From a bacterium (lineage in GTDB: Bacteria > SAR324 > JACQKK01), in NCBI GenBank assembly GCA_965249525.1, contig OZ252237.1, positions 1,156,443-1,220,442 on the forward strand: 64,000 nucleotides of DNA, given 5' to 3'. Positions within the stretch are counted from its first letter, which is position 1. Each line of letters begins with the position of its first letter. Both the position numbers and the translations under genes were made by a program. The notes below the pieces were generated by a model. The model had not been told where the DNA came from. It ran no database searches and worked only from the letters and a program-made list of their open reading frames with translations. Below are positions 9,975 to 44,695 of this stretch, piece after piece.

Positions 9975-11415
<1,441 letters not shown>

Positions 11416-18822: not shown

Positions 18823-18942
18823 CCTAGCGACCTTATACCTAGCGACCTTATACCTAGCGACCTTATACCTAGCGACCTTATACCTAGCGACCTTATACCT
18901 AGCGACCTTATACCTAGCGACCTTATACCTAGCGACCTTAAC
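18823..18942. repeat. 15-bp tandem repeat x8 (CCTAGCGACCTTATA) upstream of htpX
   Basis: Direct reading; seven perfect units and one variant. No spacers, so this is not a CRISPR array. Confidence 0.95.
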
Positions 18943-20505: not shown

Positions 20506-20680
20506 GTCTTTCATTAAACCTCGGTTTGCCCGCAAGGCAGGCTGATTGACCATATCCCCCAGCAAACCACCCTCTGCCTGATGAGGAATCCCTGCTGGCA
20601 GCACCCCCCACTCTCGCAAAGAACTTTTGCTGGAAAAAGGGGGGCAAAGGGTATGATTTTTCCATAACCTTTGGCAGTAG

Positions 20681-20740
20681 CCTGGGCAATCTCCTGGGCA
20701 ATCTCCTGGGCAACCGCCTGGGCAACCGCCTGGGTGACAG
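20681..20740. repeat. 12-bp tandem repeat x5 (CCTGGGCAAYCK) upstream of mgtE
   Basis: Direct reading. Ends 45 bp before the mgtE ATG. Confidence 0.9.
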
Positions 20741-20784: not shown

Positions 20785-22149
20785 ATGAATCAAAGCAGCC
20801 AACAAGTTAAGAGGTTGTCGCCGTTGGAGGAACAGCTGCGACTGCTGTTTGCCCAGGGTCGGCGACGGCAGGTGATGAAATTGCTCAGCCAGGCTGCAGC
20901 CCAGGATGTGGCAGATGCGCTGATGGTGCTGGAACACCATGAACGTCAACAAGCGGTAAAGCTGCTGGTGGAAGAGCAATTGCCGCTGGTGGTGAAATCA
21001 TTACCGCATCATGGGCGTGCCCGTGTGCTGGAGGTGTTGTCGGAACGGCGGGTGAAGAAGCTGCTGCCCCAACTGGAATTAGATGATGCAGCCGATGTGC
21101 TGGAATTGCTGCCAGAGGGCTTGCAGCAGCGTATTTTAAGGGGGATGCCACACCGCAAGCGGCGCATGCTGGGGCAGCTGCTGCATTATCCCCAAGACCG
21201 AGCCGGGGGGATTATGAATCCCCATGTGTTGCGCATCAATCAACGTCACACAGTACAGCAGGCTGTGGCCACCATACGTGCCTATCTGCGTTTCACCAAT
21301 ATGGAAGGATTTTACAATGTATTCGTGGTGGATGCAGAAGGTCGCTTGAAGGGGCAGATTCCCGCCTGGCGCCTGATACTGGCATCGCAGCAAGCCCCAG
21401 TGACCGAATTGATGCGCCCCTGTCTGGTGAGTGTACATCCCTATGTGCATCAGCAGGAGGTGGCGCGCTTGGCAGTGCGGCACCGCTTGGTCAGTGTACC
21501 AGTGCTCAATCAGGAGGGGCAGTTGATTGGGCGGGTGACCATTGACGACATTGTGGATGTGATTCAACGCGAGCATCATGAAGATGTGGGTCATTTGAGT
21601 GGTACGGGCAGGGAACAGGTGCATGCTTTATCCTTATGGGAGACCTTGCGTACGCGCATGCCTTGGTTGTGGGTGGCTTTGGCGGGGGAGTTTGCCTTGG
21701 CGATGTTCATGCAGCGCAACGGAGTGGTGCTGGAACGGACACCACAGCTGGCGTTTTTTATTCCCTTGGTGATGGCCATGGGGGGCAATGCTGGGGTGCA
21801 GTCAGCCAGCTTGGTGCTGCGGGGTTTAGCCAGTGGGGAAATTCGTTTGCGGGATTTTTGGCGTCGGATGCAGCGGGAGCTGCTGGTGGCAGGCAGCCTA
21901 GGCACGGTGCTGGCCCTCATGATTGCCCTGGCTGCTGGCGGTTTGACCGCAGGCATCCGCCTGGGGGCAGCGGTGGGACTGGCTGCCTGGGTCAACATCT
22001 TTTTCTCTACCTTGTTTGGTACAGCCATCCCGCTGCTTTTGCAAAAGCTGGGCAAAGACCCCGCCCTGGCCACAGGACCGTTTATTACCACCCTGAATGA
22101 CATCCTGGGCGTTGCCATCTACTTGGGCATTGCGCTATGGTTGCTGTGA
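20785..22149 (+). CDS. mgtE: Magnesium transporter MgtE
   Basis: 454 aa. MgtE N-domain, a CBS pair (...FVVDAEGRLKGQI..., ...PVLNQEGQLIGRVTIDDIVDVI), and a 5-TM C-terminus with GGNAGVQS. Confidence 0.92.
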   Translation: MNQSSQQVKRLSPLEEQLRLLFAQGRRRQVMKLLSQAAAQDVADALMVLEHHERQQAVKLLVEEQLPLVVKSLPHHGRARVLEVLSERRVKKLLPQLELDDAADVLELLPEGLQQRILRGMPHRKRRMLGQLLHYPQDRAGGIMNPHVLRINQRHTVQQAVATIRAYLRFTNMEGFYNVFVVDAEGRLKGQIPAWRLILASQQAPVTELMRPCLVSVHPYVHQQEVARLAVRHRLVSVPVLNQEGQLIGRVTIDDIVDVIQREHHEDVGHLSGTGREQVHALSLWETLRTRMPWLWVALAGEFALAMFMQRNGVVLERTPQLAFFIPLVMAMGGNAGVQSASLVLRGLASGEIRLRDFWRRMQRELLVAGSLGTVLALMIALAAGGLTAGIRLGAAVGLAAWVNIFFSTLFGTAIPLLLQKLGKDPALATGPFITTLNDILGVAIYLGIALWLL

Positions 22150-22185
22150 CCTGCACCGTCACACCCAACCATCTAGGAGGCAGTC

Positions 22186-23079
22186 ATGGTGGAACCCACC
22201 AAAAGCAAAAAGATTGAACTGTTTCTAATAGATGGCACTGCCAACGGAACTATAATTGCTCTTGGAGAAAAATGCCAATTCATCACTGCCCCAAGAGACA
22301 CTCTTCCCTGGTCGTCAGAAGACGAAACTTACCAGCCATACATAAACAAAGGAGTTTATATTATCAAAGGCGAAGAAAAACTGTATGTAGGACAGAGTAA
22401 GAATATCCACACCCGAATTCTCCAACATAGAAGAGAAAAAGATTGGGAGTGGCAGCGTTGCTGTGCTCTCACTTGCAATCACGATTGGTTTGGAGCTGAA
22501 GAGATAGATTACTTGGAAGAACGCCTTATTAAATTGGCTCAAATAGATCCCGATGGAAGAAAACTAGAAACAGATATGCGTCATACACCCGCTTCTGTCC
22601 ATCTTAAGAATAAAGACAAAAAATTTGCAGATGAAATTTTACAGGAAGCCTTGCTGGTATTTCCCTTGCTGGGGTTTGACTTTTTCTATGACAGCAGCAA
22701 TGCTGCCAAAGATGTCAGCATTCCCATTTTTAAGATAGAACAAGGGAAAATAACCGCAAGCGTCCGACTGCAAGACGACAAATGGGTGGTGCTAAAAGAT
22801 TCTCTCGGCAGACTTGAATTCACCCCCTCTTGGAAAACGCACTCTCTGGGCTACTATAAACAGAGAGAACGTTTGAAAGAAAATGGCATCTTGCAGCCAC
22901 AAGGAGACATGTTGGTATTTACCCAAGACACCCCCTTTGACAGTTCCTCCGCAGCAGCATCGGTTATTTATGGAATAGCGCAGAATGGCTACAAAATATG
23001 GAGAGTCCCAGAGGAAGGCAAACGTTACTCCCAGTGGCAGACTTATGGCGAGTGGGAAGACAGCCGACCAGAATCATGA
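22186..23079 (+). CDS. GIY-YIG nuclease-domain protein with C-terminal DUF4357-like module (array copy 1)
   Basis: 297 aa. AGGAGG-N5-ATG, 36 nt after the mgtE stop. KGVYIIKGEEKLYVGQSKNIHTRILQH...YLEERL fits the GIY/YIG/Arg/Glu pattern. C-terminal FDSSSAAASVIYGIAQNGYKIW fits the SxSAA...NG..W signature recalled for DUF4357. Visibly more AT-rich than copies 2, 3 and 5. Confidence 0.8.
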   Translation: MVEPTKSKKIELFLIDGTANGTIIALGEKCQFITAPRDTLPWSSEDETYQPYINKGVYIIKGEEKLYVGQSKNIHTRILQHRREKDWEWQRCCALTCNHDWFGAEEIDYLEERLIKLAQIDPDGRKLETDMRHTPASVHLKNKDKKFADEILQEALLVFPLLGFDFFYDSSNAAKDVSIPIFKIEQGKITASVRLQDDKWVVLKDSLGRLEFTPSWKTHSLGYYKQRERLKENGILQPQGDMLVFTQDTPFDSSSAAASVIYGIAQNGYKIWRVPEEGKRYSQWQTYGEWEDSRPES

Positions 23080-23128
23080 TCATAGTTCTTGATCTTATGC
23101 TACGGTGCAGCAGCAGTAAAATCGCAGG

Positions 23129-23185
23129 ATGACGCATAGCCTGGGCGTTGCCATCTACTTGGGCATTGCGCTATGGTTGCTGTGA
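23129..23185 (+). other. mgtE 3'-tail relic recast as an 18-codon mini-ORF (MTHSLGVAIYLGIALWLL*)
   Basis: 23140-23185 is identical to mgtE 22104-22149. An in-frame ATG lies at 23129. It is followed by GTGAC-N7-GTCAC and AGGAGG. Confidence 0.6.
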
Positions 23186-23221
23186 CTTGCACCGTCACAC
23201 CCAACCATCTAGGAGGCAGTC

Positions 23222-24115
23222 ATGATGGAACCCACCAAAAGCAAGACAGTTCAACTGACTTTTGAGGAGGGCACGCCCCACGGGATTGTCAATGTCAAGA
23301 GCCTCACCTCCCCCTACAATATTATGGCTGCCCCCCGCAACAGCCTGAACCAGCTGCCAGGCGAAAAAACCTACCAAAAACCAGGGAATTATTTGCTTAA
23401 AGGCGAAACAGAGGAGGGTTTAACCTTGTATGTGGGTCAAAGCGATAAGGTGCTCAAGCGCATCAAGCAACATAAGCGTGAAAGAGAATGGTGGACACAC
23501 TGCTGCCTGTTGACCTGCAAAAGCGACTGGCTCAATATTTCTCATGCACGCTACCTGGAACACCGCTTGTACCAACTTGCCCAAAACAACGGTGGTGTAA
23601 AGCTGGATAATGATATTGTGCCCACCCCTTCCTCTCTCTCCGAAGGACAGGCAACCGCCGCAGAAAATTTTCTGCAGGCTGCCTTGCTGGTATTGCCCTT
23701 GCTGGGGTTTGACTTTTTCTATGACAGCAGCAATGCTGCCCAAGATGCCCGCATTCCTATTTTTAAGCTAGAAATAGGCAATTCAAATGCAAGCGCCCGA
23801 CTGCAAGACGACAAATGGGTTGTACTAAAAGGATCTATTGCCAGAGGTGAAGAAGCCGATACTTTGAAAACATACGCTCCAGGATACTCTAAACAGAGAG
23901 AACGTTTGATAGAAAATAAAATTTTGCAGCCACAAGGAGAAGACATGTTGAAATTTATCCAAGACACCCCATTTACCAGCTCTTCCGCAGCAGCATCGGT
24001 TGTTTATGGACAACTGCTGAATGGACGCCAAACATGGAAAGTCCCAGAGGAAGGCAAACCTTACTCTCAGTGCCAGACTTATGGCGAGTGGGAAGACAGC
24101 CGACCAGAATCATGA
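23222..24115 (+). CDS. GIY-YIG nuclease-domain protein with C-terminal DUF4357-like module (array copy 2)
   Basis: 297 aa. GNYLLKGETEEGLTLYVGQSDKVLKRIKQH...YLEHRL, and C-terminal FTSSSAAASVVYGQLLNGRQTW. Confidence 0.8.
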   Translation: MMEPTKSKTVQLTFEEGTPHGIVNVKSLTSPYNIMAAPRNSLNQLPGEKTYQKPGNYLLKGETEEGLTLYVGQSDKVLKRIKQHKREREWWTHCCLLTCKSDWLNISHARYLEHRLYQLAQNNGGVKLDNDIVPTPSSLSEGQATAAENFLQAALLVLPLLGFDFFYDSSNAAQDARIPIFKLEIGNSNASARLQDDKWVVLKGSIARGEEADTLKTYAPGYSKQRERLIENKILQPQGEDMLKFIQDTPFTSSSAAASVVYGQLLNGRQTWKVPEEGKPYSQCQTYGEWEDSRPES

Positions 24116-24164
24116 TCATGGTTCTTGATCTTATGCTACGAGGCAGCAGCAGTAAAATCGCAGG

Positions 24165-24221
24165 ATGACGCATAGCCTGGGCGTTGCCATCTACTTGGGC
24201 ATTGCGCTATGGTTGCTGTGA
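24165..24221 (+). other. mgtE 3'-tail relic / 18-codon mini-ORF
   Basis: Same sequence and geometry as 23129-23185. Confidence 0.6.
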
Positions 24222-24257
24222 CTTGCACCGTCACACCCAACCATCTAGGAGGCAATC

Positions 24258-25148
24258 ATGAAGCAAAACCCGCAATCCAAGACAATTACACTATTTTTGG
24301 AAACTGGCACCCCCAACGGGGTGGTAAAGGCTGATGACCCCTCCTCCAACTGCCAAATTGCCGCTGCCCCCCGCAACCAGTTGCGCCAGCTGCTAGGCCA
24401 GAAAAAGTACCAAAAACCAGGGGCTTATCTGCTGAAAGGCGAACCAGAGGAGGATTTAACCCTGTATGTGGGTAAAACCAATAATTTCTCTGATCGCATT
24501 AAGAACCATGATTCCAAAAAAGACTGGTGGACACACTGCTGCCTGATAAACTCCAAAGATAAATGGCTAAATTCTGCTGATGCAGGCTACCTGGAACACC
24601 ACTTGTACCAACTTGCCAAAAGCAACGGGCAAGTAAGGCTGACTAACGAAAACGAGCCCTCTTCTCCTGATATCGCCGAAGACCGGGCAGTCGTCGCAGA
24701 AAATTTTCTGCAGGCTGCCTTGCTGATTTTCCCTTTGCTGGAGTTTAACTTTTTCTATGACAGTACCAGCACCCCCAAAGATGCCAGCATTCCCATTTTT
24801 AAGCTAGAAACCAAGAAAGTAGAGGCAACTGCCCGACTGCAAGGCGACAAATGGATTGTGCTAAAAGGTTCTTTTGCCGATCTTACAGCTGCCAGCTATT
24901 TAGAAAAGGACTATCCAGGCTACTATAAACGGAGAGAACGTTTGATAGAAAATGACATCTTGAAGAAACAAGGAGACATGTTGGTATTTACCCAAGATGC
25001 CCCATTTAACAGCCCTTCCACAGCAGCATCAATTATTATTGGAAAACCTTCTAATGGACGCCAAACATGGAAAGCACAAGAGAAGGGTAAAGCTTACTCC
25101 CAGTGGCAGACTTATGGCGAGTGGGAAGACAGCCGACCAGAATCATGA
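24258..25148 (+). CDS. GIY-YIG nuclease-domain protein with C-terminal DUF4357-like module (array copy 3)
   Basis: 296 aa. GAYLLKGEPEEDLTLYVGKTNNFSDRIKNH...YLEHHL, and C-terminal FNSPSTAASIIIGKPSNGRQTW. Confidence 0.8.
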   Translation: MKQNPQSKTITLFLETGTPNGVVKADDPSSNCQIAAAPRNQLRQLLGQKKYQKPGAYLLKGEPEEDLTLYVGKTNNFSDRIKNHDSKKDWWTHCCLINSKDKWLNSADAGYLEHHLYQLAKSNGQVRLTNENEPSSPDIAEDRAVVAENFLQAALLIFPLLEFNFFYDSTSTPKDASIPIFKLETKKVEATARLQGDKWIVLKGSFADLTAASYLEKDYPGYYKRRERLIENDILKKQGDMLVFTQDAPFNSPSTAASIIIGKPSNGRQTWKAQEKGKAYSQWQTYGEWEDSRPES

Positions 25149-25197
25149 TCATGGTTCTTGATCTTATGCTACGAGGCAGCAGCAGTAAAATCGCAGG

Positions 25198-25290
25198 ATG
25201 ACGCATAGCCTGGGCGTTGCCATCTGCCTGGGCGTTGCCATCTGCCTGGGCGTTGCCATCTACTTGGGCATTGCGCTATGGTTGCTGTAA
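25198..25290 (+). other. mgtE 3'-tail relic / 30-codon mini-ORF, extended by two in-frame 18-bp repeats
   Basis: CCTGGGCGTTGCCATCTG x3 at 25209-25262. The ORF stays open and ends at TAA 25288-25290. Confidence 0.6.
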
Positions 25291-25326
25291 CCTGCACCGT
25301 CACACCCAACCATCTAGGAGGCAATC

Positions 25327-26220
25327 ATGATGGAACCCACCAAAAGCAAAAAGATTGAACTGTTTCTAATAGATGGCACTGCCAACGGAACTATAATTGC
25401 TCTTGGAGAAAAATGCCAATTCATCACTGCCCCAAGAGACACTCTTCCCTGGTCGTCAGAAGACGAAACTTACCAGCCATACATAAACAAAGGAGTTTAT
25501 ATTATCAAAGGCGAAGAAAAACTGTATGTAGGACAGAGTAAGAATATCCACACCCGAATTCTCCAACATAGAAGAGAAAAAGATTGGGAGTGGCAGCGTT
25601 GCTGTGCTCTCACTTGCAATCACGATTGGTTTGGAGCTGAAGAGATAGATTACTTGGAAGAACGCCTTATTAAATTGGCTCAAATAGATCCCGATGGAAG
25701 AAAACTAGAAACAGATATGCGTCATACACCCGCTTCTGTCCATCTTAAGAATAAAGACAAAAAATTTGCAGATGAAATTTTACAGGAAGCCTTGCTGGTA
25801 TTTCCCTTGCTGGGGTTTGACTTTTTCTATGACAGCAGCAATGCTGCCAAAGATGTCAGCATTCCCATTTTTAAGATAGAACAAGGCAAAATAACCGCAA
25901 GCGTCCGACTGCAAGACGACAAATGGGTGGTGCTAAAAGATTCTCTCGGCAGACTTGAATTCACCCCCTCTTGGAAAACGCACTCTCTGGGCTACTATAA
26001 ACAGAGAGAACGTTTGAAAGAAAATGGCATCTTGCAGCCACAAGGAGACATGTTGGTATTTACCCAAGACACCCCCTTTGACAGTTCCTCCGCAGCAGCA
26101 TCGGTTATTTATGGAATAGCGCAGAATGGCTACAAAATATGGAGAGTCCCAGAGGAAGGCAAACGTTACTCCCAGTGGCAGACTTATGGCGAGTGGGAAG
26201 ACAGCCGACCAGAATCATGA
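25327..26220 (+). CDS. GIY-YIG nuclease-domain protein with C-terminal DUF4357-like module (array copy 4, near-identical to copy 1)
   Basis: Line-by-line comparison with 22186-23079 (offset 3141) shows only 2 substitutions: 22189 G/A (V2M) and 22746 G/C (synonymous). Confidence 0.8.
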   Translation: MMEPTKSKKIELFLIDGTANGTIIALGEKCQFITAPRDTLPWSSEDETYQPYINKGVYIIKGEEKLYVGQSKNIHTRILQHRREKDWEWQRCCALTCNHDWFGAEEIDYLEERLIKLAQIDPDGRKLETDMRHTPASVHLKNKDKKFADEILQEALLVFPLLGFDFFYDSSNAAKDVSIPIFKIEQGKITASVRLQDDKWVVLKDSLGRLEFTPSWKTHSLGYYKQRERLKENGILQPQGDMLVFTQDTPFDSSSAAASVIYGIAQNGYKIWRVPEEGKRYSQWQTYGEWEDSRPES

Positions 26221-26269
26221 TCATGGTTCTTGATCTTATGCTACGGTGCAGCAGCAGTAAAATCGCAGG

Positions 26270-26344
26270 ATGACGCATAGCCTGGGCGTTGCCATCTGCC
26301 TGGGCGTTGCCATCTACTTGGGCATTGCGCTATGGTTGCTGTGA
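26270..26344 (+). other. mgtE 3'-tail relic / 24-codon mini-ORF, with one extra in-frame 18-bp repeat
   Basis: CCTGGGCGTTGCCATCTG x2 at 26281-26316. The ORF is open through TGA 26342-26344. Confidence 0.6.
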
Positions 26345-26380
26345 CTTGCACCGTCACACCCAACCATCTAGGAGGCAGTC

Positions 26381-27781
26381 ATGATGGAACCCACCAAAAG
26401 CAAGACAGTTCAACTGACTTTTGAGAATGGCACGCCCCACGGGATTGTCAATGTCAAGAGCCTCACCTCCCCCTACAATATTATGGCTGCCCCCCGCAAC
26501 AGCCTGAGCCAGCTGCCAGGCGAAAAAACCTACCAAAAACCAGGGAATTATTTGCTTAAAGGCGAAACAGAAGAAGATTTAACCCTGTATGTGGGTCAAA
26601 GCGATGATGTCCTCAAACGCATCAAGCAACATTATCAAAAAAAAGAATGGTGGACACACTGCTGCCTGTTGACCAGTAAAGGCGACGAACTCAACATCTC
26701 TCATACACGCTATCTGGAACGCTGCTTGTACGATCTTGCCCAAGACAACGGTTATGTAAAGCTGGACAATGAGAAGGCACCCGACTCTTCCCCTCTCTCC
26801 CAAGAACAGAAAAACGAAGCAGAACATTTTCTTCAGGATGCCTTGCTGGTATTTCCCTCGCTGGGTTTTAACTTTTTCTATGACAGCGCCGGCCGTCCCC
26901 AAGCTGCCAGCCCTGCCATTGCTAAGGATAAGAAAGAATCATCCGACAGCACCCCTGCTGCCAAAGATGTGAGCATTCCCATTTTTAAGATAAAACAAGG
27001 CAAAATAACCGCAACTGTCCAACTGCAAGACGACAAATGGGTGGTGCTAAAAGATTCTCTCGGCAGACTTGAATTCACCCCCTCTTGGAAAACGCACTCT
27101 CTGGGCTACTATAAACAGAGAGAACGTTTGAAAGAAAATGGCATTTTGCAGAAACAAGGAGAAACCTTAATTTTTACCCAAGACACCCCATTTACCAGCC
27201 CTTCCGCAGCAGCATCCATTGTTCTTGCAAGCACCATGAATGGTTACAAAACATGGAGAGTCCCAGAGGAAAACAAACCTTACTCCCAGTGGCAGACTTA
27301 TGGCGAGTGGGAAAAAATCTACCTAGAAGCTACCTCAGATGCCAGCCTTCCCGTTTCCAAGAGTGAAAGAGACCCATCCTATGACGGTGCCAGTGCTGCC
27401 AAAGATGCCAGCCTTCCCATTTTTAAGGTAAAAATAGGCAAAGCAAATGCAAGCGCCCGACTGCAAGGCGACAAATGGGTGGTGCTAAAAGGTTCTCTCG
27501 GCAGACTTGAATTCACCCCCTCTTTGAAAACGCACTTTCTGGGCTACTATAAACAGAGAGAACGTTTGAAAGAAAATGGCATTTTGCAGGAACAAGAAGA
27601 CACCTTAATTTTTACCCAAGACACCCCATTTACCAGCTCTTCCGCAGCAGCATCCATTGTTCTTGCAAGACCCCTGAATGGCTACAAAACATGGAAAGTC
27701 CCAGAAAAAGACAAACCTTACTCCCAGTGGCAGACTTATGGCGAGTGGGAAGCAACCCAGCTAGAAGCCGCCGCCTCATGA
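26381..27781 (+). CDS. GIY-YIG nuclease-domain protein with two tandem C-terminal DUF4357-like modules (array copy 5)
   Basis: 466 aa. The N-terminus is nearly identical to copy 2 for about the first 60 codons. The C-module (AAKD.S.PIFK...QTYGEWE) occurs twice with a 438-bp period (from 26960 and from 27398). Confidence 0.8.
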   Translation: MMEPTKSKTVQLTFENGTPHGIVNVKSLTSPYNIMAAPRNSLSQLPGEKTYQKPGNYLLKGETEEDLTLYVGQSDDVLKRIKQHYQKKEWWTHCCLLTSKGDELNISHTRYLERCLYDLAQDNGYVKLDNEKAPDSSPLSQEQKNEAEHFLQDALLVFPSLGFNFFYDSAGRPQAASPAIAKDKKESSDSTPAAKDVSIPIFKIKQGKITATVQLQDDKWVVLKDSLGRLEFTPSWKTHSLGYYKQRERLKENGILQKQGETLIFTQDTPFTSPSAAASIVLASTMNGYKTWRVPEENKPYSQWQTYGEWEKIYLEATSDASLPVSKSERDPSYDGASAAKDASLPIFKVKIGKANASARLQGDKWVVLKGSLGRLEFTPSLKTHFLGYYKQRERLKENGILQEQEDTLIFTQDTPFTSSSAAASIVLARPLNGYKTWKVPEKDKPYSQWQTYGEWEATQLEAAAS

Positions 27782-27821
27782 TGCTGTGTGCCTGTTTCTC
27801 ATATAGAATGGACAGCTGCCT

Positions 27822-28667
27822 ATGAAAGGTGTGATTCTAGCCGCCGGCTACGGCAGCCGTTTTCTGCCCGCCTCTAAAACCATTCCCAAAGAACTCTTTC
27901 CCCTGCTGGACAAGCCTGCCATTGCCTTCATCGTAGAAGAATTTATCCAGGCAGGCATTGAACAGCTGATTGTGGTCACCTCCCGTCGTAAAAAACCACT
28001 GGATGATTTCTTTGACCGCGAAATAGAACTAGAACAAGCCCTAACTGGCGAAAAAAGAAAGTGCATTATCCCTCCCCAATTGGATGTATGCCTGCTGCAC
28101 CAGCAGCGCATGCTGGGTTCTGGCGACGCCTTAATGCAGCTGGAAGCCTGGGTAGGCAAGGAAGCCTTTGTGGTAGCTTATCCCGATGACATCCATATGG
28201 ATGGACCCTCGCTGACCGCACAGCTGATGGCAGTACACCAGCGCAGCCAGCGCAGTGTGCTTTCTTTGCAGGAAACCCCAGGCGATATCTCACGCTACGG
28301 CGTGGCAGTAGTCAAATCGCAGCATGGCGTACAACTGGTCACCCAACTGGTAGAAAAACCCCCCCAGGGCAAAGAACCCAGTCGCTTGGTCAGTTATGGA
28401 CGCTACCTGTACACCTCAGAAATTTTCAGCGCACTTAAACAAACACGGGCGTATTTCAGTGGCTCGGGTGAATTTACCCAAACCCAAGCCATCCAGCAGC
28501 TGGCCACAGAAGGACGCATGGCAGCGGTAACTTTTGAGGGTCGCATTTTGGATGTGGGAGAACCAGCAGGATACTTAAAATCCATCATAGCGTATGCCCT
28601 CACACGCCCAGATCTTAAAGAAGAACTGCTGCATTTTATCAAAGAGGTCAGTGCCCGCCACAACTAA
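27822..28667 (+). CDS. galU: UTP--glucose-1-phosphate uridylyltransferase
   Basis: MKGVILAAGYGSRFLPASKTIPKELFPLLDKPAIAFIVEE..., the canonical GalU N-terminus. Confidence 0.9.
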   Translation: MKGVILAAGYGSRFLPASKTIPKELFPLLDKPAIAFIVEEFIQAGIEQLIVVTSRRKKPLDDFFDREIELEQALTGEKRKCIIPPQLDVCLLHQQRMLGSGDALMQLEAWVGKEAFVVAYPDDIHMDGPSLTAQLMAVHQRSQRSVLSLQETPGDISRYGVAVVKSQHGVQLVTQLVEKPPQGKEPSRLVSYGRYLYTSEIFSALKQTRAYFSGSGEFTQTQAIQQLATEGRMAAVTFEGRILDVGEPAGYLKSIIAYALTRPDLKEELLHFIKEVSARHN

Positions 28668-28726: not shown

Positions 28727-30043
28727 ATGGCAGGATTGGTTGTAGTAGGAGCGCAGTGGGGGGATGAAGGCAAGGGCAAATTGGTGGATTTGCTCACGCA
28801 GCACGCAGAAATGGTGGTGCGGTTTCAAGGAGGCAGCAACGCAGGACACACCGTATATGTTGGGAATAAAAGCTTTGTGCTGCATTTAATTCCCTCGGGG
28901 ATTTTTCATGCCAAGACCGTAAGCGTGCTGGGCAACGGGGTGGTGATAGACCCCCAGGCGCTGCTAAAAGAAATCCAACAGCTGCAAGCAGGGGGAGTCA
29001 ATGTAGCCAAGAATTTACGCATCAGCAGAACCGCGCACTTGGTCATGCCTTACCACAAAGCCTTTGACCTGCTGCGAGAAAAACTACGCGGTGCTGGCAA
29101 AATTGGCACCACAGGTCGGGGCATCGGCCCTACCTATGAAGACAAAATGGCACGTCGCGGCATACGCTTTTGCGACCTGGAAGAGTTGTCAGCCGACAAC
29201 CTGCGCCTAAACCTGACACAGATCCTAGCAGAGAAAAATCTGCTGCTGCACCAACTATACGGCAGCCAGCAAGCCCCCCTGCAAGCCGATGCCATTCTGC
29301 AGGAGTACCTGCAATACCATCAACAACTCAAACCCTTCCTGTGTGATGCCTCTCAACTGGTCAACCAAGCCCTGGATGCAGGCAAACTGGTACTATTTGA
29401 AGGCGCTCAAGGCTGCGGACTAGATGTAGACCACGGCAGCTACCCCTATGTCACCTCCTCCAATACAGTGGCAGGCGGTGCCTGCACTGGCAGCGGAGTG
29501 GGACCCACCCGCATCTCGCAGGTACTGGGCATCACCAAGGCCTACACCACCCGCGTGGGAGAAGGACCCTTCCCCACAGAACTGCAGCAAGACCCCGTGG
29601 GAGAACACTTGAGCCAGCAGGGGCAAGAATTCGGTGCCACCACAGGAAGAACAAGACGCTGCGGCTGGTTTGATGCCGTCATCGTCAAACAAGCCATCCG
29701 CCTCAGTTCCATCACAGCCCAAGCCCTCACCAAACTGGATGTACTCAGCGGACTAAAAATACTCAAAATCGCCCACGCCTGGTGCGATGACCAAGGCAAC
29801 CACTTCCAAGACGCTCCCCATCACTTCAGCCAGCGCAGCAACCTGCGCCCCGTCTATGAAGAACTCCCAGGATGGCAAACCTCCCTGCGCAACATCACCC
29901 AATGGCAGCATCTCCCCCAAAATGCCCAACGCTACGTCCAACGTATAGAAACCCTCACCGGCGTCCCCGCAGCCATCATCTCCGTGGGGCCGCATCGCCA
30001 TGAAACCATATGGAGAGAACCCCTGCTGCAACTGATGAAATAA
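28727..30043 (+). CDS. purA: Adenylosuccinate synthetase
   Basis: 438 aa. GAQWGDEGKGK, GTTGRGIGPTYEDK. Confidence 0.97.
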   Translation: MAGLVVVGAQWGDEGKGKLVDLLTQHAEMVVRFQGGSNAGHTVYVGNKSFVLHLIPSGIFHAKTVSVLGNGVVIDPQALLKEIQQLQAGGVNVAKNLRISRTAHLVMPYHKAFDLLREKLRGAGKIGTTGRGIGPTYEDKMARRGIRFCDLEELSADNLRLNLTQILAEKNLLLHQLYGSQQAPLQADAILQEYLQYHQQLKPFLCDASQLVNQALDAGKLVLFEGAQGCGLDVDHGSYPYVTSSNTVAGGACTGSGVGPTRISQVLGITKAYTTRVGEGPFPTELQQDPVGEHLSQQGQEFGATTGRTRRCGWFDAVIVKQAIRLSSITAQALTKLDVLSGLKILKIAHAWCDDQGNHFQDAPHHFSQRSNLRPVYEELPGWQTSLRNITQWQHLPQNAQRYVQRIETLTGVPAAIISVGPHRHETIWREPLLQLMK

Positions 30044-30051
30044 GCCCCGCC

Positions 30052-30936
30052 ATGCACCCCTCCCGCCTCCCACAACAACTGGTAGCCTGGCTGGAAAACC
30101 TCCAGCGAAGCAAAATGCGCTACCTCAGCGGTATTCAACCCCTGTCTGCACTCCCTGTCCCCACAACTCCGCAGCCCACACCGCAGCCCACACCACAGCC
30201 CACACCACAGCCCACACCGCAGCCCACACCACAGCCCACACCACAGCCCACACCACAGCCCACACCACAGCCCACGGCACAGCCCACACCGCAGCCCCCT
30301 GCCACACCCCCCATGACCAACCATCCCAGCTTCCAAGACTCCCTGCTGTTCCATCACAGCCAAGCCGAAAAAATCGCCGCCCAAACCCATACCCTGGAAG
30401 ACCTCCACACCGCCTTTGCCACCTGCACCCGCTGCCGATTGGCGCAAAACCGCATCCAACTAGTCTTCGGCTGCGGCAACCCGCATCCAGGCATCGTCTT
30501 CATCGGTGAAGGTCCAGGGGCAGAAGAAGACCAACAAGGACTCCCCTTCGTGGGAGCCGCAGGACGCCTGCTCACCGACCTCATCTCCGCTATGGGATTA
30601 ACCCGCCAGGATGTCTATATCGCTAATATCGTTAAATGCCGACCCCCAAGCAATCGCAACCCCCAGCCCGATGAAATCCAAGCCTGCATGCCCATCCTCA
30701 ACCACCAACTCCAATTGCTCAACCCCAAACTCATGGTGACACTAGGTGCTGTGCCCCTCAATGCTCTGATACCCAACTCCCCAGGCATTACCCACGCCCG
30801 CGGACACCTGACCCAGTACCGACAATGGCCGCTGCTGCCCACCTACCACCCCTCCTACCTGCTGCGAAAACCCTCAGCACTGGACGAATGCTGGCAGGAT
30901 TTTCACCAGGCCCTCAAACAGGTCTATGCCAGTTAG
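30052..30936 (+). CDS. Family-4 uracil-DNA glycosylase with an N-terminal (PQPT)n extension
   Basis: GNPHPGIVFIGEGPGAEEDQQGLPFVGAAGRLL...IANIVKCRPPSNRNP...HPSYLLR. Start taken at the ATG just after the purA stop. Confidence 0.85.
   Translation: MHPSRLPQQLVAWLENLQRSKMRYLSGIQPLSALPVPTTPQPTPQPTPQPTPQPTPQPTPQPTPQPTPQPTPQPTAQPTPQPPATPPMTNHPSFQDSLLFHHSQAEKIAAQTHTLEDLHTAFATCTRCRLAQNRIQLVFGCGNPHPGIVFIGEGPGAEEDQQGLPFVGAAGRLLTDLISAMGLTRQDVYIANIVKCRPPSNRNPQPDEIQACMPILNHQLQLLNPKLMVTLGAVPLNALIPNSPGITHARGHLTQYRQWPLLPTYHPSYLLRKPSALDECWQDFHQALKQVYAS
30169..30297. repeat. 12-bp tandem repeat x~11 (CCRCAGCCCACA) in the UDG N-terminal extension
   Basis: Direct reading. In frame, encoding (PQPT)n. Confidence 0.9.
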
Positions 30937-32996: not shown

Positions 32997-33843
32997 ATGT
33001 TTGCTCAATTCCCAACCAAAACAGCTTGGAGGCTGCTGCTGGCAGGCGGACTGGCAGTGATGCTGCTGGGTGCCTTGCTTGCCTCCTGCGGAGGTGGCGG
33101 AGGCGGCGGCGGAGATGATGGTACTCCCATTGCCGACAATGGTGGGACCAACGCCCATGCCTGACACGCCCGACCCCATGCCCGACCCCATGCCCGACAC
33201 CATGCCTGACACCACGCCCGACACCACGCCCGACCCCACGCCCGACCCCACGCCCGACCCCACGCCCGACCCCACGCCCGACACCACGCCCGACCCGCCT
33301 CCGCCGCCACCCCCACCCCCACCTACAAGGGCTTATCTGTGGGTTAGTGCTGCGGACTCTACGCCAGAGAATACCGCTACGACCCTTAAAGGAGATTTTG
33401 GTGGTACAGTTGCTGCCGATGTCGTATGCAGGGGGCGGGCAAGCGGTGCTGGACTGCCCGCTGCTGCTGCTGGCTATACGCACAAGGCAGTGGTAGCAAC
33501 CAATTCATTTAATCCCAGTAACATTCCAGTAAATAATTCCCATAAGGTCTACCGCCCTGACGACAGCACCAAAATTGCCAACAGCTATGCAGACTTTTTT
33601 AATGCTTCTATATCTGTAACCAACTCGGTGGCAAGTACAAGTGGTAAATACTGGACAGGTATTGATGTTGATGATGGTGCTTTTAAGATTTCGGAGAGTA
33701 ATTGCACCGATTGGAGTTCCGATACTGCTAGTAGTAGCTTCGGCGATCCTCGCCAAAAAGATCATAAAAGATTAGGGGAACCAAGCGTCTTCTTATCATG
33801 TACTAGGGCACGCCCTCTGTTATGTGTCAGCTATCAGCCTTAA
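32997..33843 (+). pseudogene. DUF1554-like lipoprotein paralogue with (PDPT)n linker, frameshifted after the lipobox
   Basis: It has the same leader and signal peptide as 32184. The first frame stops at 33162-33164 (...DNGGTNAHA*). The mature part (PMPDTPDP...[10 protein letters not shown]...VYRPDDST...YWTG...LLCVSYQP) lies in another frame, shifted near the CCC at 33154-33156. Confidence 0.6.
33169..33300. repeat. 12-bp tandem repeat x11 (CCCGACMCCAYG) encoding the Pro/Asp/Thr linker
   Basis: Direct reading. In frame with the mature-domain frame. Confidence 0.9.
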
Positions 33844-42003: not shown

Positions 42004-42105
42004 AGTTTCACCAGGGGGATGAGAGGGGAGCAAAATCTACCTTACCAGAATATCCTAGCTGATTTGACAACTATCTGCAAAGGCAATCGTCATGAGAAAT
42101 AATGG

Positions 42106-44604
42106 TTGATTGCAAACAGCAGTCTGGCTAACGATGGGAGACGGGGTGTGTACGCTGAGAAGCAACGGATTTTTTTGATAGCAAGCTTGAAAAAACAGTG
42201 GAGAGCTGAGTATGCAAGCACCGCTGCTTGGGTGCTGCTGTTGGCGGGTTGTTGTATCTGGTGGCGGATTTTTGTTGACAGACTTCCTGCGGGGTGGGTT
42301 TGGGGTCTAGAAAAGGACCTCATAGAGTCTTTATTTAGTTGGAATTATTTTGGTCGCTGGATAGACTGGCTGCCGTTTCCACAGCTGCTGCCTGGTGGGG
42401 ATGTGCACAGCTATCCTTACCAGGGGGGAGTGCTGGTGCAGCCTTGGGTACTTGAGCTGTATGTGTTCATGTCTCTGGGACAGCAATGGCAGGTGGGTGG
42501 CGGTTGGCTGGTGTACTATGCGGTGTTCAGCGTGTTGGCGGGCTGTTTGGGAAGTTTTTGGCTGCTGCGGGGGGTGTATGGAGAACAGCGCGCTGGTTGG
42601 TTTGCTTTACTGGTTACGGTTTTCAATTTTTATATTGGCTTCAAGCAGAATGTCCATTTGAATATTAGTTTTTACCACTGGCTGCTGTTGGGGGTGGTGG
42701 TGGATTTTCTGTTGTTTCGACAGCTGGTAAGAGAAAGACGGCTGCATTTGCCCTTGGTGATGCTGCGGGGGCTGCTGCTGCTGCTGGGTCTGGGACATGA
42801 CTTGAGCTATATAGCAGCAATGAATGTTACTTCGTTGGTGCTGGTGCTGATATTTGGACTGGGCTGGGTGTGGCGTCAACAATGGCTGGCAGCGGGCAGT
42901 TGGTGGCAGTTGGCGGGGCGAGCCTGGCGGGACGCCTGGAGGCAGTGGCGGGAGATGCCCTGGCGGCATGGTCTCTTGTTGGCGGGCATGCTGCTGGTGG
43001 GTTGGTTGTATGTGCCCTTGGTGCTGCAGTTGCTGCAGGCTATTCCGTCCTCGGATCTGGAAACTGATCATTATCGTATTTTCTGGTTTGCCAACCCGCT
43101 GCGGATACTGCTGCCATATCTGCAGGGGAGTTTCTCTTTGGAATTGCTTGATCTCAGGGAGCATCCCTTCAGTGGCACTGCTGGCTGGAGCTTGTTGTCG
43201 CTGGGGGTGCTGGGGTGGCTGGCAGCCATAAGAAGCCGCAGGCATGCTGGGGTATCTGCACCTGCACCACAAGCCTCTGCCTGGGTCTGGCTGCTTCCTA
43301 GTGCGGTGTTGTTGGGACTGCTGGTATTCAATATCCCGCGGCTGCTGCCCACGCTGCAGATCTTTCCTTGGCATCATTTTTCACGGGTGGGAGGACGGGG
43401 AACCTTGCTTTATCCTGTGCTGCTGCTGCTGCCTGCCTTGGAGATCAAACGCTGGCAGGTTCCCAAGTGGTTTTGGGCTGCCTGGCTGGTGGTGGGCGGT
43501 TTGGAATTGCACACCTTCACCCGCATTCTTCCCCAACCTGCACCGGCAGCAGCCGATGGGCAGAAAGTGCTGGCGTACAGCGCTTTTGTCCAGCAGCAGC
43601 CAGGGGAGGCTATCTTTGAGTGGCCGTTTTGTCTGCGCAGACGCGGCTTTCGTGAATTATGCCCCTTTAATTTCTGGGCAGAGGACATTGGCTTCTTGCG
43701 AATGTACCATGGCAAAAAGGGTCTGGCTGGGGTTTGGAATATATGGCCTGCTGGACATCTGATGGAAGCCTTAAAGATACAGGGCTGGCCGCATCTGCTG
43801 CTGCCAGAAGCCCGTCAATGGGGAGAGTATCAAGAACCACGCCGTCAACAACGCTGCTTGCAAGAACACGAATACCGATTTCTGGAACGCCATTTGGCGC
43901 AGCACGATTTTGCTGGCATTCAAGTGCAAGAAGACTTGCTGGCACCTGGCTGTGCAGCGGGGTTTTACCGTCGTTTTGGACAGCCAACCGCACGCCTGCT
44001 GGCCAATCGCCACAAGCCCACACAGCTGAGTTTTGTGCCTCTGGATGACAGCTGGCGCCAACGGCATCAAAAGGATGCCCAGAGCGACCCTCCTCCGCTG
44101 ATTTTATTTGAAGCCCCCCTGGCAGATTTTGTAGCCTTGGAACGCCCCTACGGGCTTAGCTTCAAAGGACTGAAGCGCCGTTCAAAACGTACAGGTACAT
44201 ACCGCAGCATCGGGCGCGAACGCTACTCCTTGGGGAAAACAACCCAGCTGCGCTGGCATGCAGCACAAGCTGGTCAAGTACAACTGCATGCCGAACTGGA
44301 AAGCCTGTATCAAAACCAGCAGGTGCGCCTGATATGCAACCATACGCCGCTAGGGCAGTGGGGGCCGCTTGCCAAGGGGCAACAGCTGCGCATCCAACAG
44401 ACTTGCCCCACCTCAGCAGGTCTCAACGAATTGCACCTAGAATACACCGTACAGGGAGGAAACAATCTGTGGATAGCTGTCCAGAAGCAGCTGTTTGAGG
44501 AGGGTTTAAGCGGCTTGTCACAAAGCAAATTGCAGCAGGCGCATCAACGTTATCTGGCATCAGCCGTGCGCTTCACCAGACTGCAATTAAAAAACCTCCC
44601 CTAG
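42106..44604 (+). CDS. Large polytopic membrane protein (N-terminal ~480 aa multi-TM, C-terminal ~350 aa soluble), unknown function; copy 1
   Basis: 832-aa track ORF starting at TTG (alternative GTG at 42141; no early ATG). Trp/Leu-rich TM region with no motif I can name. Confidence 0.65.
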   Translation: MIANSSLANDGRRGVYAEKQRIFLIASLKKQWRAEYASTAAWVLLLAGCCIWWRIFVDRLPAGWVWGLEKDLIESLFSWNYFGRWIDWLPFPQLLPGGDVHSYPYQGGVLVQPWVLELYVFMSLGQQWQVGGGWLVYYAVFSVLAGCLGSFWLLRGVYGEQRAGWFALLVTVFNFYIGFKQNVHLNISFYHWLLLGVVVDFLLFRQLVRERRLHLPLVMLRGLLLLLGLGHDLSYIAAMNVTSLVLVLIFGLGWVWRQQWLAAGSWWQLAGRAWRDAWRQWREMPWRHGLLLAGMLLVGWLYVPLVLQLLQAIPSSDLETDHYRIFWFANPLRILLPYLQGSFSLELLDLREHPFSGTAGWSLLSLGVLGWLAAIRSRRHAGVSAPAPQASAWVWLLPSAVLLGLLVFNIPRLLPTLQIFPWHHFSRVGGRGTLLYPVLLLLPALEIKRWQVPKWFWAAWLVVGGLELHTFTRILPQPAPAAADGQKVLAYSAFVQQQPGEAIFEWPFCLRRRGFRELCPFNFWAEDIGFLRMYHGKKGLAGVWNIWPAGHLMEALKIQGWPHLLLPEARQWGEYQEPRRQQRCLQEHEYRFLERHLAQHDFAGIQVQEDLLAPGCAAGFYRRFGQPTARLLANRHKPTQLSFVPLDDSWRQRHQKDAQSDPPPLILFEAPLADFVALERPYGLSFKGLKRRSKRTGTYRSIGRERYSLGKTTQLRWHAAQAGQVQLHAELESLYQNQQVRLICNHTPLGQWGPLAKGQQLRIQQTCPTSAGLNELHLEYTVQGGNNLWIAVQKQLFEEGLSGLSQSKLQQAHQRYLASAVRFTRLQLKNLP

Positions 44605-44695
44605 CACCAGCAGTCTCTGGCTAGGCGCACCCAAACAGTTTGTCCCCTGGCTGATGCTCATGACGGGAATGTCTCCGCTAGTCACAAAATAATGC

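What the first reader, a model, noticed from the sequence alone, without database searches (positions are those of the whole stretch)
23080..26380. Every array spacer keeps a relic of the mgtE 3' end as an open mini-ORF, plus the same hairpin and SD
Each of the four spacers ends with the last 46 bp of mgtE (CCTGGGCGTTGCCATCTACTTGGGCATTGCGCTATGGTTGCTGTGA; native copy 22104-22149). That is followed by the same 36-nt stop-to-start linker, containing a GTGAC-N7-GTCAC hairpin that overlaps the stop codon, and the AGGAGG. An in-frame ATG (GGATGACGCATAGC) converts each relic into a mini-ORF MTHS-LGVAIYLGIALWLL* of 18, 18, 30 and 24 codons. The extra 18-bp CCTGGGCGTTGCCATCTG units in spacers 3 and 4 are in frame and keep it open. 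The 'terminating ribosome, hairpin, SD' geometry that links mgtE to copy 1 is thus rebuilt before every paralogue. This suggests translational coupling or leader-peptide control. It also marks the duplication junction, which could arise by unequal crossing-over or by repeated insertion at the mgtE 3' end, analogous to att-site duplication.
Basis: seen in the sequence. Interest (0 to 1): 0.7.

Follow-up and report, generated by a model that had tools for sequence, protein, structure and literature searches.

The report
Duplication scars between tandem defence genes
The repeated "mgtE tail plus mini-ORF" between five tandem nuclease genes is a leftover scar of one segmental duplication that was then amplified, so it is an ordinary by-product with no evidence of being a regulatory device.

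Summary
The last 44-46 nt of mgtE, the 36-nt linker, a hairpin and an AGGAGG recur before each of five tandem GIY-YIG/DUF4357 genes (PADLOC candidate PDC-S14). An in-frame ATG gives mini-ORFs of 18, 18, 30 and 24 codons.

Each spacer also holds a ~43-nt fragment from inside the downstream NTP-transferase gene, fused to the mgtE relic. The same composite junction occurs in all four spacers and in both spacers of a ~5%-diverged relative (L007). The spacer is therefore the join point of one tandem duplication, running from 46 nt before the mgtE stop to about NTP-transferase codon 170. It was later trimmed and amplified by unequal recombination.

The mini-ORF ATG comes from that fragment, out of the NTP-transferase reading frame. 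A random fusion gives such an ORF about 26-30% of the time. The extra units are 18 nt, so they are in frame by arithmetic. The mini-ORF has no Shine-Dalgarno sequence, while each array gene has a strong one.

Spacers diverge between the two genomes at the neutral rate but are near-identical within a genome, which points to concerted evolution and not constraint. Translational coupling is untested, and att-like insertion is contradicted. Interest is low to moderate.

The parts
20785..22149 (+). mgtE (454 aa; MgtE_N, CBS and MgtE domains). Its last 46 nt (22104-22149) are the source of the relics.
22150..22185 (+). Native 36-nt stop-to-start linker. The hairpin spans 22137-22172 (ATGGTTGcTGTGAC-N7-GTCACAccCAACCAT) and the SD AGGAGG is at 22175-22180.
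22186..23079 (+). Array gene c1 (297 aa; GIY-YIG + DUF4357; PADLOC PDC-S14).
23080..23221 (+). Spacer 1 (142 nt). It contains the NTP-transferase-derived fragment 23092-23134, the mgtE relic 23140-23185, the hairpin 23173-23208 and the SD 23211-23216. ORF-a is 23076-23132 and the relic mini-ORF is 23129-23185.
23222..24115 (+). Array gene c2 (297 aa).
24116..24257 (+). Spacer 2 (142 nt). It contains the NTP-transferase fragment 24128-24170 and the relic 24176-24221. ORF-a is 24112-24168 and the relic mini-ORF is 24165-24221.
24258..25148 (+). Array gene c3 (296 aa).
25149..25326 (+). Spacer 3 (178 nt). It contains the NTP-transferase fragment 25161-25203, two extra 18-nt units 25208-25243 and the relic 25245-25290, which ends in a TAA stop that breaks the inner stem. 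The relic mini-ORF is 25198-25290 (30 codons).
25327..26220 (+). Array gene c4 (297 aa), 99.8% identical in DNA to c1, so a very recent duplicate.
26221..26380 (+). Spacer 4 (160 nt). It contains the NTP-transferase fragment 26233-26275, one extra 18-nt unit 26280-26297 and the relic 26299-26344. The relic mini-ORF is 26270-26344 (24 codons).
26381..27781 (+). Terminal array gene c5 (466 aa). A 438-nt internal duplication gives it two DUF4357 domains. Its native tail is ...EATQLEAAAS*, and no relic follows it.
27778..27825 (+). Native 15-codon bridging ORF. Its ATG overlaps the c5 stop (TCATGA) and its TGA overlaps the NTP-transferase ATG. ORF-a in the spacers begins at the same inherited ATGA.
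27822..28667 (+). NTP-transferase gene (281 aa). Its internal segment 28287-28329 (codons 156-170, ISRYGVAVVKSQHG; weaker similarity continues to about 28338) is the source of the fragment in every spacer.

Best explanation
**What the spacers are.** The four spacers are copies of a single duplication join point.

**Proposed history.**
1. An ancestral locus read mgtE, 36-nt linker, one GIY-YIG/DUF4357 gene, NTP-transferase.
2. It underwent a tandem duplication. The left breakpoint lay 46 nt before the mgtE stop. The right breakpoint lay inside the NTP-transferase gene near codon 170, possibly at a CTGG microhomology.
3. Most of the duplicated NTP-transferase 5' part was later deleted, leaving about 43 nt.
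4. The roughly 220 nt of near-identical DNA at each boundary then served as substrate for unequal homologous recombination and gene conversion. That stretch is the last ~60 nt of a gene, the spacer, and the first ~20 nt of the next gene.
5. This recombination amplified the unit to five copies and produced mosaic paralogues. It also keeps the spacers homogenised within a genome.
6. Slippage of an 18-nt unit, in a genome full of short tandem repeats, added the extra units.

**What is functional.** What the spacer usefully carries is the native ribosome-binding region (AGGAGG, 5 nt, ATG). This lets each paralogue be translated from a polycistronic transcript. The relic mini-ORF is an accidental fusion of an out-of-frame ATG in the NTP-transferase fragment with the mgtE tail.

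**Shown versus inferred.** Shown: the composite anatomy, the shared junction in two genomes and the divergence pattern. Inferred: the order of events, co-transcription and the lack of function of the mini-ORF.
For: **Origin of the spacer.**
- Outside the array, the only significant match of the pre-relic spacer DNA is inside the adjacent NTP-transferase gene, at the orthologous position in both genomes. It is window 28287-28329 (E 2e-5) and L007 13039-13078 (35/40 identical, E 8e-10 to 1e-8).
- The background local-alignment score was 18.3 +/- 2.2 (maximum 24), against observed scores of 36-50.
- The same junction is present in all 4 window spacers and both L007 spacers.
- No relic follows the last copy, and the internal coding tails (EDSRPES*) are homologous to the terminal tail.

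**Divergence pattern.**
- Spacers are 97-100% identical, whereas the N-terminal gene halves are 40-60% identical in DNA.
- Paralogue dS is 0.2-0.67 overall and up to 1.6 in the N-terminal half. Between the two genomes, flanking genes have dS of only 0.05.
- Between the genomes the spacers differ by 2-4 of 60 nt, which is about the neutral rate.
- Exact mosaic tracts occur, for example c1:582-704 = c5:642-764, and c1 and c4 are 99.8% identical.
- The array's gene number, and the order of paralogue types by N-terminal similarity, differ between the genomes. The window has 5 genes and L007 has 3.

**Mini-ORF is not special.**
- A chance fusion gives an ATG-initiated ORF in 26-30% of trials.
- The mini-ORF ATG has no SD, while the array genes pair at -10.2 kcal/mol.
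- No terminator-like site lies in the spacers.
- The genome is rich in tandem repeats, with 97 TRF rows in 64 kb.
Against: **Limited comparison.** Only two genomes of this lineage exist in the collections searched. Selection on the mini-ORF or hairpin therefore cannot be excluded.

**Points that fit a functional reading.**
- All six relic mini-ORFs are open.
- The hairpin is retained, with two wobble changes and one mismatch in the outer helix, even in the L007 spacer whose linker has otherwise diverged.
- The spacer is fully tiled by two mini-ORFs joined by ATGA overlaps. The A that creates the second ATGA is derived relative to the NTP-transferase source.

**Uncertain details.** The exact breakpoint and the CTGG microhomology are uncertain within about 12 nt. 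The origin of the 12 nt just after the stop codon is unexplained.
Confidence: 0.78

Rival explanations
1. **Translational relay.** Ribosomes finishing one array gene would reinitiate at the overlapping ATG of ORF-a (TCATGA). They would then reinitiate at the relic mini-ORF (GGATGA). They would terminate inside the hairpin 25 nt before the SD, melting it and boosting initiation of the next paralogue. Expression of all copies would then be coupled to mgtE and to each other.
For: - The spacers contain a gap-free ATGA-linked chain: gene, then an 18-codon ORF-a, then the relic ORF. A native ATGA / 15 codons / ATGA bridge also links c5 to the SD-less NTP-transferase in both genomes.
- Among about 20 same-strand gene junctions in the window, ATG/ATGA-linked chains occur only here. 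One other junction shows a weak TTG-started chain.
- The stop codon lies within a 13-pair hairpin next to the SD.
- The mini-ORFs are open in all 6 spacers of the two genomes.
Against: - Each array gene has its own strong SD (-10.2 kcal/mol, 5-nt spacing), which is largely unpaired in the predicted folds.
- Hairpin z-scores range from -2.0 to +0.5, so the hairpin is not exceptionally stable, and spacer 3 has lost the inner stem.
- There is a 36-nt gap between the relic stop and the next start.
- The hairpin shows no compensatory changes.
- Three of four substitutions in the relic ORF between the genomes change the amino acid.
- All copies are one inherited sequence, and its features are expected by chance at about 30%.
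Confidence: 0.1
2. **Internal promoter.** The relic would matter because the mgtE 3' end contains a promoter (TTGCCA-18-TATGGT). That promoter would have been copied with each unit and would give every paralogue its own transcription start.
For: A sigma-70-like match (9 of 12 positions) lies inside every relic, at 22112-22141, 23148-23177, 24184-24213, 25253-25282 and 26307-26336.
Against: - The match is weak, with an 18-nt spacer and a poor -10 box.
- The scan finds 13 sites against 7.6 +/- 2.8 expected, and five of them are the same repeated sequence.
- The promoter type of this uncultured lineage is unknown.
- The relic is not conserved beyond the neutral rate.
Confidence: 0.08
3. **Site-specific cassette insertion.** Each gene would be a mobile cassette inserted at an att-like site in the mgtE 3' end, duplicating the target. 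This would resemble integrative elements or integron cassettes, with the hairpin as the recombination site.
For: A repeated copy of a gene's 3' end plus an inverted repeat precedes every cassette, and the gene bodies are far more diverged than their flanks.
Against: - Every spacer also contains the same fragment of the neighbouring NTP-transferase gene.
- There is no relic after the last gene.
- There is no integrase or transposase among the called genes of the syntenic locus L007, about 7.5 kb upstream of mgtE and 4 kb downstream of the array.
- The hairpin is a plain 13-pair stem, not an attC-like structure, and it is part of the native mgtE end.
- Homologues elsewhere are single-copy genes in defence islands.
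Confidence: 0.03
4. **Leader-peptide attenuation.** Translation of the hydrophobic mini-ORF peptide would control a downstream terminator/antiterminator choice.
For: A short ORF ends within a hairpin upstream of the gene.
Against: - No T-run or terminator-like site lies in any spacer.
- There is no Rfam match.
- There are no alternative stable structures (z = -0.06).
- The peptide is simply the MgtE C-terminus plus repeat units.
Confidence: 0.02

Closest known systems
Tandem segmental duplication or amplification with a novel join point, followed by RecA-dependent unequal crossing-over. This is the classic picture of bacterial gene amplification. It is stated here from general knowledge; reviews such as PMC11721125 and PMC1428787 were seen only as titles and abstracts.
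   Same: - Units lie head to tail.
- One junction fuses the right end of the unit (inside the NTP-transferase gene) to its left end (inside mgtE).
- That junction is repeated in every spacer and absent after the last copy.
- Copy number and order differ between close relatives.
- A short microhomology may be present at the junction.
   Different: - The array is old and stable enough to be shared by genomes about 5% apart, unlike transient amplifications.
- The units have diverged strongly, with dS up to 1.6, while the junctions stay homogenised.
- The duplicated NTP-transferase part has been trimmed to about 43 nt.
Concerted evolution of tandem paralogues by gene conversion (general knowledge).
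   Same: Within a genome the spacers are more alike than between genomes. Window relics all carry GTT and L007 relics all carry ATT. Exact mosaic tracts run between paralogues.
   Different: Homogenisation is confined to about 220 nt at the gene boundaries plus a few internal tracts. The N-terminal halves escape it, possibly through diversifying selection (dN/dS 0.5-0.94) or import of foreign alleles.
ATGA-type translational coupling by termination-reinitiation in operons (general knowledge).
   Same: Stop/start overlaps (TCATGA, GGATGA) chain the array-gene stop, ORF-a and the relic ORF. The native c5 to NTP-transferase junction has the same design, and NTP-transferase has no SD.
   Different: The last step to the next array gene is a 36-nt gap with a strong independent SD. 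No expression data exist, and all copies are one inherited sequence.
att-site duplication by integrative elements that target the 3' end of a gene, and integron cassette arrays (general knowledge).
   Same: A copy of a gene's 3' end recurs at each unit boundary.
   Different: - There is no recombinase.
- There is no terminal repeat after the last unit.
- The spacers carry a fragment of the adjacent chromosomal gene.
- There is no attC-like site.
PADLOC PDC-S14, a single-gene phage-defence candidate predicted by 'guilt by embedding' (bioRxiv 10.1101/2024.01.29.577857).
   Same: All five array proteins match the PDC-S14 HMMs (E 1e-53 to 1e-101) and have GIY-YIG plus DUF4357 domains. One homologue sits inside a Type I R-M operon next to GmrSD.
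   Different: Homologues elsewhere are single-copy, whereas here there is a five-gene tandem array beside housekeeping genes. Per that preprint, the 145 PDC systems as a class are untested.

Membership tests
Tandem duplication/amplification scar | Direct head-to-tail repeats of one unit | tested here: met
   Five units of about 1.04-1.07 kb (the last about 1.5 kb).
Tandem duplication/amplification scar | A junction that joins sequence from the right end of the unit to its left end, identical in every repeat | tested here: met
   An NTP-transferase internal fragment is fused to the mgtE 3' end in all 4 window spacers and both L007 spacers. blastn E values are 2e-5 and 8e-10 to 1e-8.
Tandem duplication/amplification scar | No junction after the last unit; the last unit keeps its native downstream flank | tested here: met
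   The c5 tail and the 40-nt intergenic stretch lead straight into NTP-transferase, with no relic.
Tandem duplication/amplification scar | Microhomology or repeat at the breakpoints | tested here: inconclusive
   CTGG is shared by NTP-transferase (..CAACTGG|TC) and mgtE (..ATCCTGG|GC). However, similarity over the last ~12 nt of the fragment is weak, so the breakpoint is not exact.
Integrative element with att duplication / integron cassette array | Site-specific recombinase encoded nearby | tested here: not met
   Precomputed Pfam families for all called genes of L007 show no integrase or transposase. These genes cover about 7.5 kb upstream of mgtE and 4 kb downstream of the array. The rest of the 64-kb window was not scanned protein by protein.
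Integrative element with att duplication / integron cassette array | att repeats flank each element on both sides, and the element DNA is foreign | tested here: not met
   No relic follows the last gene. The spacers contain a piece of the adjacent chromosomal NTP-transferase gene.
Translational coupling (termination-reinitiation) | Stop and start codons overlap or abut | tested here: met
   ATGA overlaps link gene to ORF-a and ORF-a to the relic ORF. The relic ORF stop to the next gene start is 36 nt.
Translational coupling (termination-reinitiation) | The downstream start depends on upstream translation (weak or occluded SD) | tested here: not met
   The array genes have AGGAGG at 5-nt spacing, pairing at -10.2 kcal/mol. 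The SD is largely unpaired in the MFE folds, and fold z-scores range from -2.0 to +0.5.
Translational coupling (termination-reinitiation) | Measured dependence of downstream expression on upstream translation | not testable with these tools
   This needs reporter fusions or ribosome profiling.
Leader-peptide attenuator | Terminator/antiterminator alternative structures with a T-run after the leader ORF | tested here: not met
   There is no terminator-like site in any spacer, no Rfam family, and the whole-spacer fold has z = -0.06.
PADLOC PDC-S14 (array genes) | Match to the family HMMs with GIY-YIG + DUF4357 architecture | tested here: met
   PDLC04923 E values are 1.6e-53 to 1e-101. DUF4357 is above the Pfam cut-off in all copies, and GIY-YIG is at or near the cut-off.
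PADLOC PDC-S14 (array genes) | Anti-phage activity | not testable with these tools
   The 145 PDC systems, the class PDC-S14 belongs to, are described as untested candidates (bioRxiv 10.1101/2024.01.29.577857).

The most novel reading that the evidence does not exclude
The scar may have been co-opted. The two ATGA-linked mini-ORFs plus the stop-codon hairpin would form a ribosome relay. That relay would pass translation from mgtE through all five nuclease paralogues and on to the SD-less NTP-transferase, tying expression of a defence-gene array to a Mg2+ channel. At the same time, the homogenised spacers would act as portable homology that lets the array shuffle and resize.
Probability: 0.1. 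Interest if true: 0.5.

Novelty: new member of a known kind. Interest (0 to 1): 0.25.

Why it matters
The main value is as a worked example. A repeated, open, neatly placed mini-ORF with a hairpin and an SD looks like a regulatory device. Here it can be explained entirely by the anatomy of one duplication junction, with fragments of both flanking genes fused together, and by concerted evolution.

A secondary point concerns defence genes. The locus shows a candidate defence gene (PDC-S14, a GIY-YIG nuclease with a DUF4357 domain) expanded into a five-copy array in an uncultured deep-branching bacterium. The array is mosaic and fast-evolving, and it differs in copy number and order between two genomes only about 5% apart. 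This could interest people who study how defence repertoires diversify.

Tried and rejected
**Searches for relatives.**
- Genome-contig scan with MgtE: no close relative, best 38% identity.
- Exact-protein look-ups of MgtE and of c2 (P0001): not on record.
- Metagenome scan for the 40-nt junction: 0 hits.
- The 70%-PurA relative L015 keeps NTP-transferase-purA but has a recN-like gene upstream, with no mgtE and no array. It gives no ancestral state.

**RNA and structure.**
- Rfam at gathering and E<=1 thresholds: nothing in the window or the array, and no M-box before mgtE.
- Hairpin covariation: 0 compensatory pairs, so there is no power.
- AlphaFold model of c3 (pLDDT 92.4) against the PDB: no match with E<=0.001 for the whole chain, so no functional inference.

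**Origin of the spacer DNA.**
- The post-stop 60 nt was compared with the terminal intergenic region: no similarity, with 476 of 500 shuffles scoring as high. This led to the search that found the NTP-transferase fragment.
- GCCTGGGC as a genome-wide motif: enriched only because of the array itself.
- The hairpin as a dispersed REP-like element: rejected, because it occurs only at the 5 sites.

Full report
**1. What is there**

The + strand carries mgtE (20785-22149), which has MgtE_N, CBS and MgtE domains. Five tandem genes follow:
- c1, 22186-23079
- c2, 23222-24115
- c3, 24258-25148
- c4, 25327-26220
- c5, 26381-27781

After them come an NTP-transferase gene (27822-28667) and purA (28727-30043). 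Each array protein has a GIY-YIG motif and a DUF4357 domain. Each matches the PADLOC candidate PDC-S14, with E values from 1.6e-53 to 1e-101.

The PDC systems as a class are untested defence candidates predicted from embedding in R-M, BREX or DISARM loci (bioRxiv 10.1101/2024.01.29.577857). DUF4357 is known as a domain fused to GmrSD, McrB-like and GIY-YIG proteins (PMC4619093, PMC11090510). More distant homologues are single-copy. One lies inside a Type I R-M operon next to GmrSD, one lies next to a YhcG-family gene, and one lies near a D12-class methyltransferase gene. PurA places the organism in an uncultured lineage. The best named hits, at about 60% identity, are Lambdaproteobacteria/SAR324 MAGs.

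**2. Check of the observation**

The exact 44-nt mgtE tail occurs at 22104, 23140, 24176, 25245 and 26299. It is followed each time by the 36-nt linker and AGGAGG.

Three corrections apply:
- Spacer 3 ends in TAA, which breaks a stem pair, and its predicted fold loses the hairpin.
- The inverted repeat is really 13 pairs: ATGGTTGcTGTGAC-N7-GTCACAccCAACCAT.
- The loops differ slightly between copies.

The hairpin motif is found only at these five places in 64 kb.

**3. What the spacer is made of**

I compared the 60 nt between an array-gene stop and the relic with everything outside the array. One significant match appeared. It is a segment inside the downstream NTP-transferase gene, at window 28287-28329 (codons 156-170), with blastn E 2e-5. 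The local score was 36, against a background of 18.3 +/- 2.2 with a maximum of 24.

A syntenic locus from a related genome is available as L007 (ENA ERZ25069801 contig_58). Its flanks are 94-96% identical to the window. It has three array genes and two spacers with the same anatomy. There the fragment matches the L007 NTP-transferase gene at the orthologous position, 35/40 identical with E 8e-10 to 1e-8.

The coding tail of the internal copies (…GEWEDSRPES*) is homologous to the terminal tail (…GEWEATQLEAAAS*), with a 9-nt indel.

So each spacer reads, in order:
- the array-gene tail;
- about 12 nt of unknown origin;
- about 43 nt of NTP-transferase;
- the junction;
- 46 nt of mgtE;
- the native 36-nt linker.

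This is the join point of one tandem duplication. The duplicated segment ran from 46 nt before the mgtE stop to about NTP-transferase codon 170. Most of the duplicated NTP-transferase part was later deleted. A CTGG shared by both parents at the junction may be the microhomology used, but the last ~12 nt align weakly, so the breakpoint is approximate. No relic follows the last gene.

**4. How the array evolved**

Spacers, together with the last ~60 nt of one gene and the first ~20 nt of the next, are 97-100% identical. The N-terminal gene halves are only 40-60% identical in DNA.

| Comparison | Measure | Value |
|---|---|---|
| Paralogues, whole gene | dS | 0.20-0.67 |
| c1 vs others, N-terminal half | dS | 1.3-1.6 |
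| Paralogues | dN/dS | 0.5-0.94 |
| mgtE, NTP-transferase, purA between genomes | dS | about 0.05 |
| Pre-junction 60 nt, between genomes | differences | 2-4 |
| Pre-junction 60 nt, within the window | differences | 0-3 |

Between the genomes, then, the spacers diverge at about the neutral rate. Relic variants are also genome-specific. All window relics carry GTT. All L007 relics carry ATT, although the native L007 mgtE has GTT.

This pattern indicates concerted evolution (unequal crossing-over or gene conversion), not purifying selection. Three further observations agree:
- c1 and c4 are 99.8% identical.
- Exact mosaic tracts exist, such as c1:582-704 = c5:642-764.
- The number of array genes, and the order of paralogue types by N-terminal similarity, differ between the two genomes.

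The extra 18-nt units (GCCTGGGCGTTGCCATCT) include the junction G, so they arose after the junction formed. The mgtE tail is itself an imperfect 18-nt doublet encoding LGVAIY/LGIALW. The window carries 97 TRF rows of short tandem repeats, so slippage is unsurprising here.

**5. Is the mini-ORF meaningful?**

Several tests bear on this, and none supports a function:
- The ATG lies in the NTP-transferase-derived fragment. L007 NTP-transferase reads CAGGATG, and the ATG is out of that gene's frame.
- Fusing the mgtE tail to every position of the NTP-transferase gene, or of 30 kb of the window, gives an ATG-initiated in-frame ORF in 30% and 26% of cases.
- Because all spacers descend from one junction, this is a single event.
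- The 18-nt units cannot shift the frame.
- The mini-ORF ATG has no SD (-2.0 kcal/mol at zero spacing). Every array gene has AGGAGG at 5-nt spacing (-10.2 kcal/mol).
- Stop-linker-start folds are no more stable than shuffles, with z from -2.0 to +0.5, and they leave the SD largely unpaired. The whole spacer has z = -0.06.
- Across eight copies the hairpin shows 0 compensatory changes, 2 wobble changes and 2 breaks.
- Between the genomes the relic ORF has three amino-acid-changing substitutions (T>R, V>I, Y>C) and one silent substitution.
- There is no Rfam family and no terminator-like site in the spacers.

**6. What keeps the coupling idea alive**

- I found a second mini-ORF, ORF-a, of 18 codons. 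Its ATG overlaps the array-gene stop (TCATGA), and its TGA overlaps the relic-ORF ATG (GGATGA).
- The native c5 to NTP-transferase junction has the same design, ATGA / 15 codons / ATGA. NTP-transferase has no SD, and the bridge is open in both genomes.
- Among about 20 same-strand gene junctions in the window, ATG/ATGA-linked chains occur only at these sites. One other junction shows a weak TTG-started chain.
- The A that makes the second ATGA is derived relative to the NTP-transferase source.
- The hairpin persists in the L007 spacer whose linker has otherwise diverged.

These observations are suggestive, but they are post hoc and rest on one inherited sequence. I give a functional relay about 10%.

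A weak promoter-like match (TTGCCA-18-TATGGT, 9 of 12 positions) lies in each relic. It is a further rival that does not exclude the others.

**7. Verdict**

The "duplication junction" reading is supported and refined. The att-like insertion reading is contradicted. The regulatory reading is unsupported but untested. This is a new instance of a known kind of feature: a tandem amplification scar under concerted evolution.

**8. Limits**

- Only two genomes of the lineage were found.
- The L007 frameshifts in two array genes lie at or beside short homopolymer runs and may be assembly errors.
- No expression data are available.

Noticed in passing
window 42097-47203: This is a second tandem duplication. 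Two 2.59-kb units are 97-98% identical, and each encodes an ~830-aa protein (42106-44604 and 44696-47203) with no Pfam match.
   Followed up: partly
window 27778-27825; L007 12530-12577: A 15-codon ORF bridges c5 and the NTP-transferase gene. Its ATG overlaps the c5 stop and its TGA overlaps the NTP-transferase start. NTP-transferase has no SD (-3.0 kcal/mol). The ORF is open in both genomes despite 3 substitutions, so it may be a genuine translational-coupling bridge.
   Followed up: partly
whole window, e.g. 20680-20734, 18823-18940, 30172-30297, 33165-33296: Short tandem repeats of period 9-20 are unusually dense, with 97 TRF rows in 64 kb. One example is (GCCTGGGCAACC)n just upstream of mgtE, which is also present in L007.
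   Followed up: no
window 26956-27751 (inside c5); L007 gene B 10001-11383: An internal 438-nt tandem duplication (91% identity) gives c5 two DUF4357 domains. The same architecture occurs in an internal, non-terminal array gene of L007.
   Followed up: partly
L007 9032, 9186, 11130: Array genes A and B of the related genome carry frameshifts. All lie at or beside short homopolymer runs: C5 vs C6, an A-run one base longer than in the window genes, and an extra A interrupting a C-run. They could be real decay or long-read assembly errors.
   Followed up: partly
window 22186-27781: The paralogues have high dN/dS (0.5-0.94). In the N-terminal half of c2 versus c3, dN exceeds dS. The c1/c4 N-terminal half is near saturation against the others (dS 1.3-1.6). 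These values suggest diversifying selection or import of distant alleles.
   Followed up: partly
window 24258-25148 (c3): The AlphaFold model is confident (pLDDT 92.4, pTM 0.72), yet the whole chain has no PDB match at E<=0.001. A domain-wise search was not done.
   Followed up: no
L015 7281-11320: In a more distant relative (PurA 70% identical), NTP-transferase-purA is preceded by a recN-like SMC gene, with no mgtE and no array. The juxtaposition of mgtE, the array and NTP-transferase is therefore lineage-specific.
   Followed up: no
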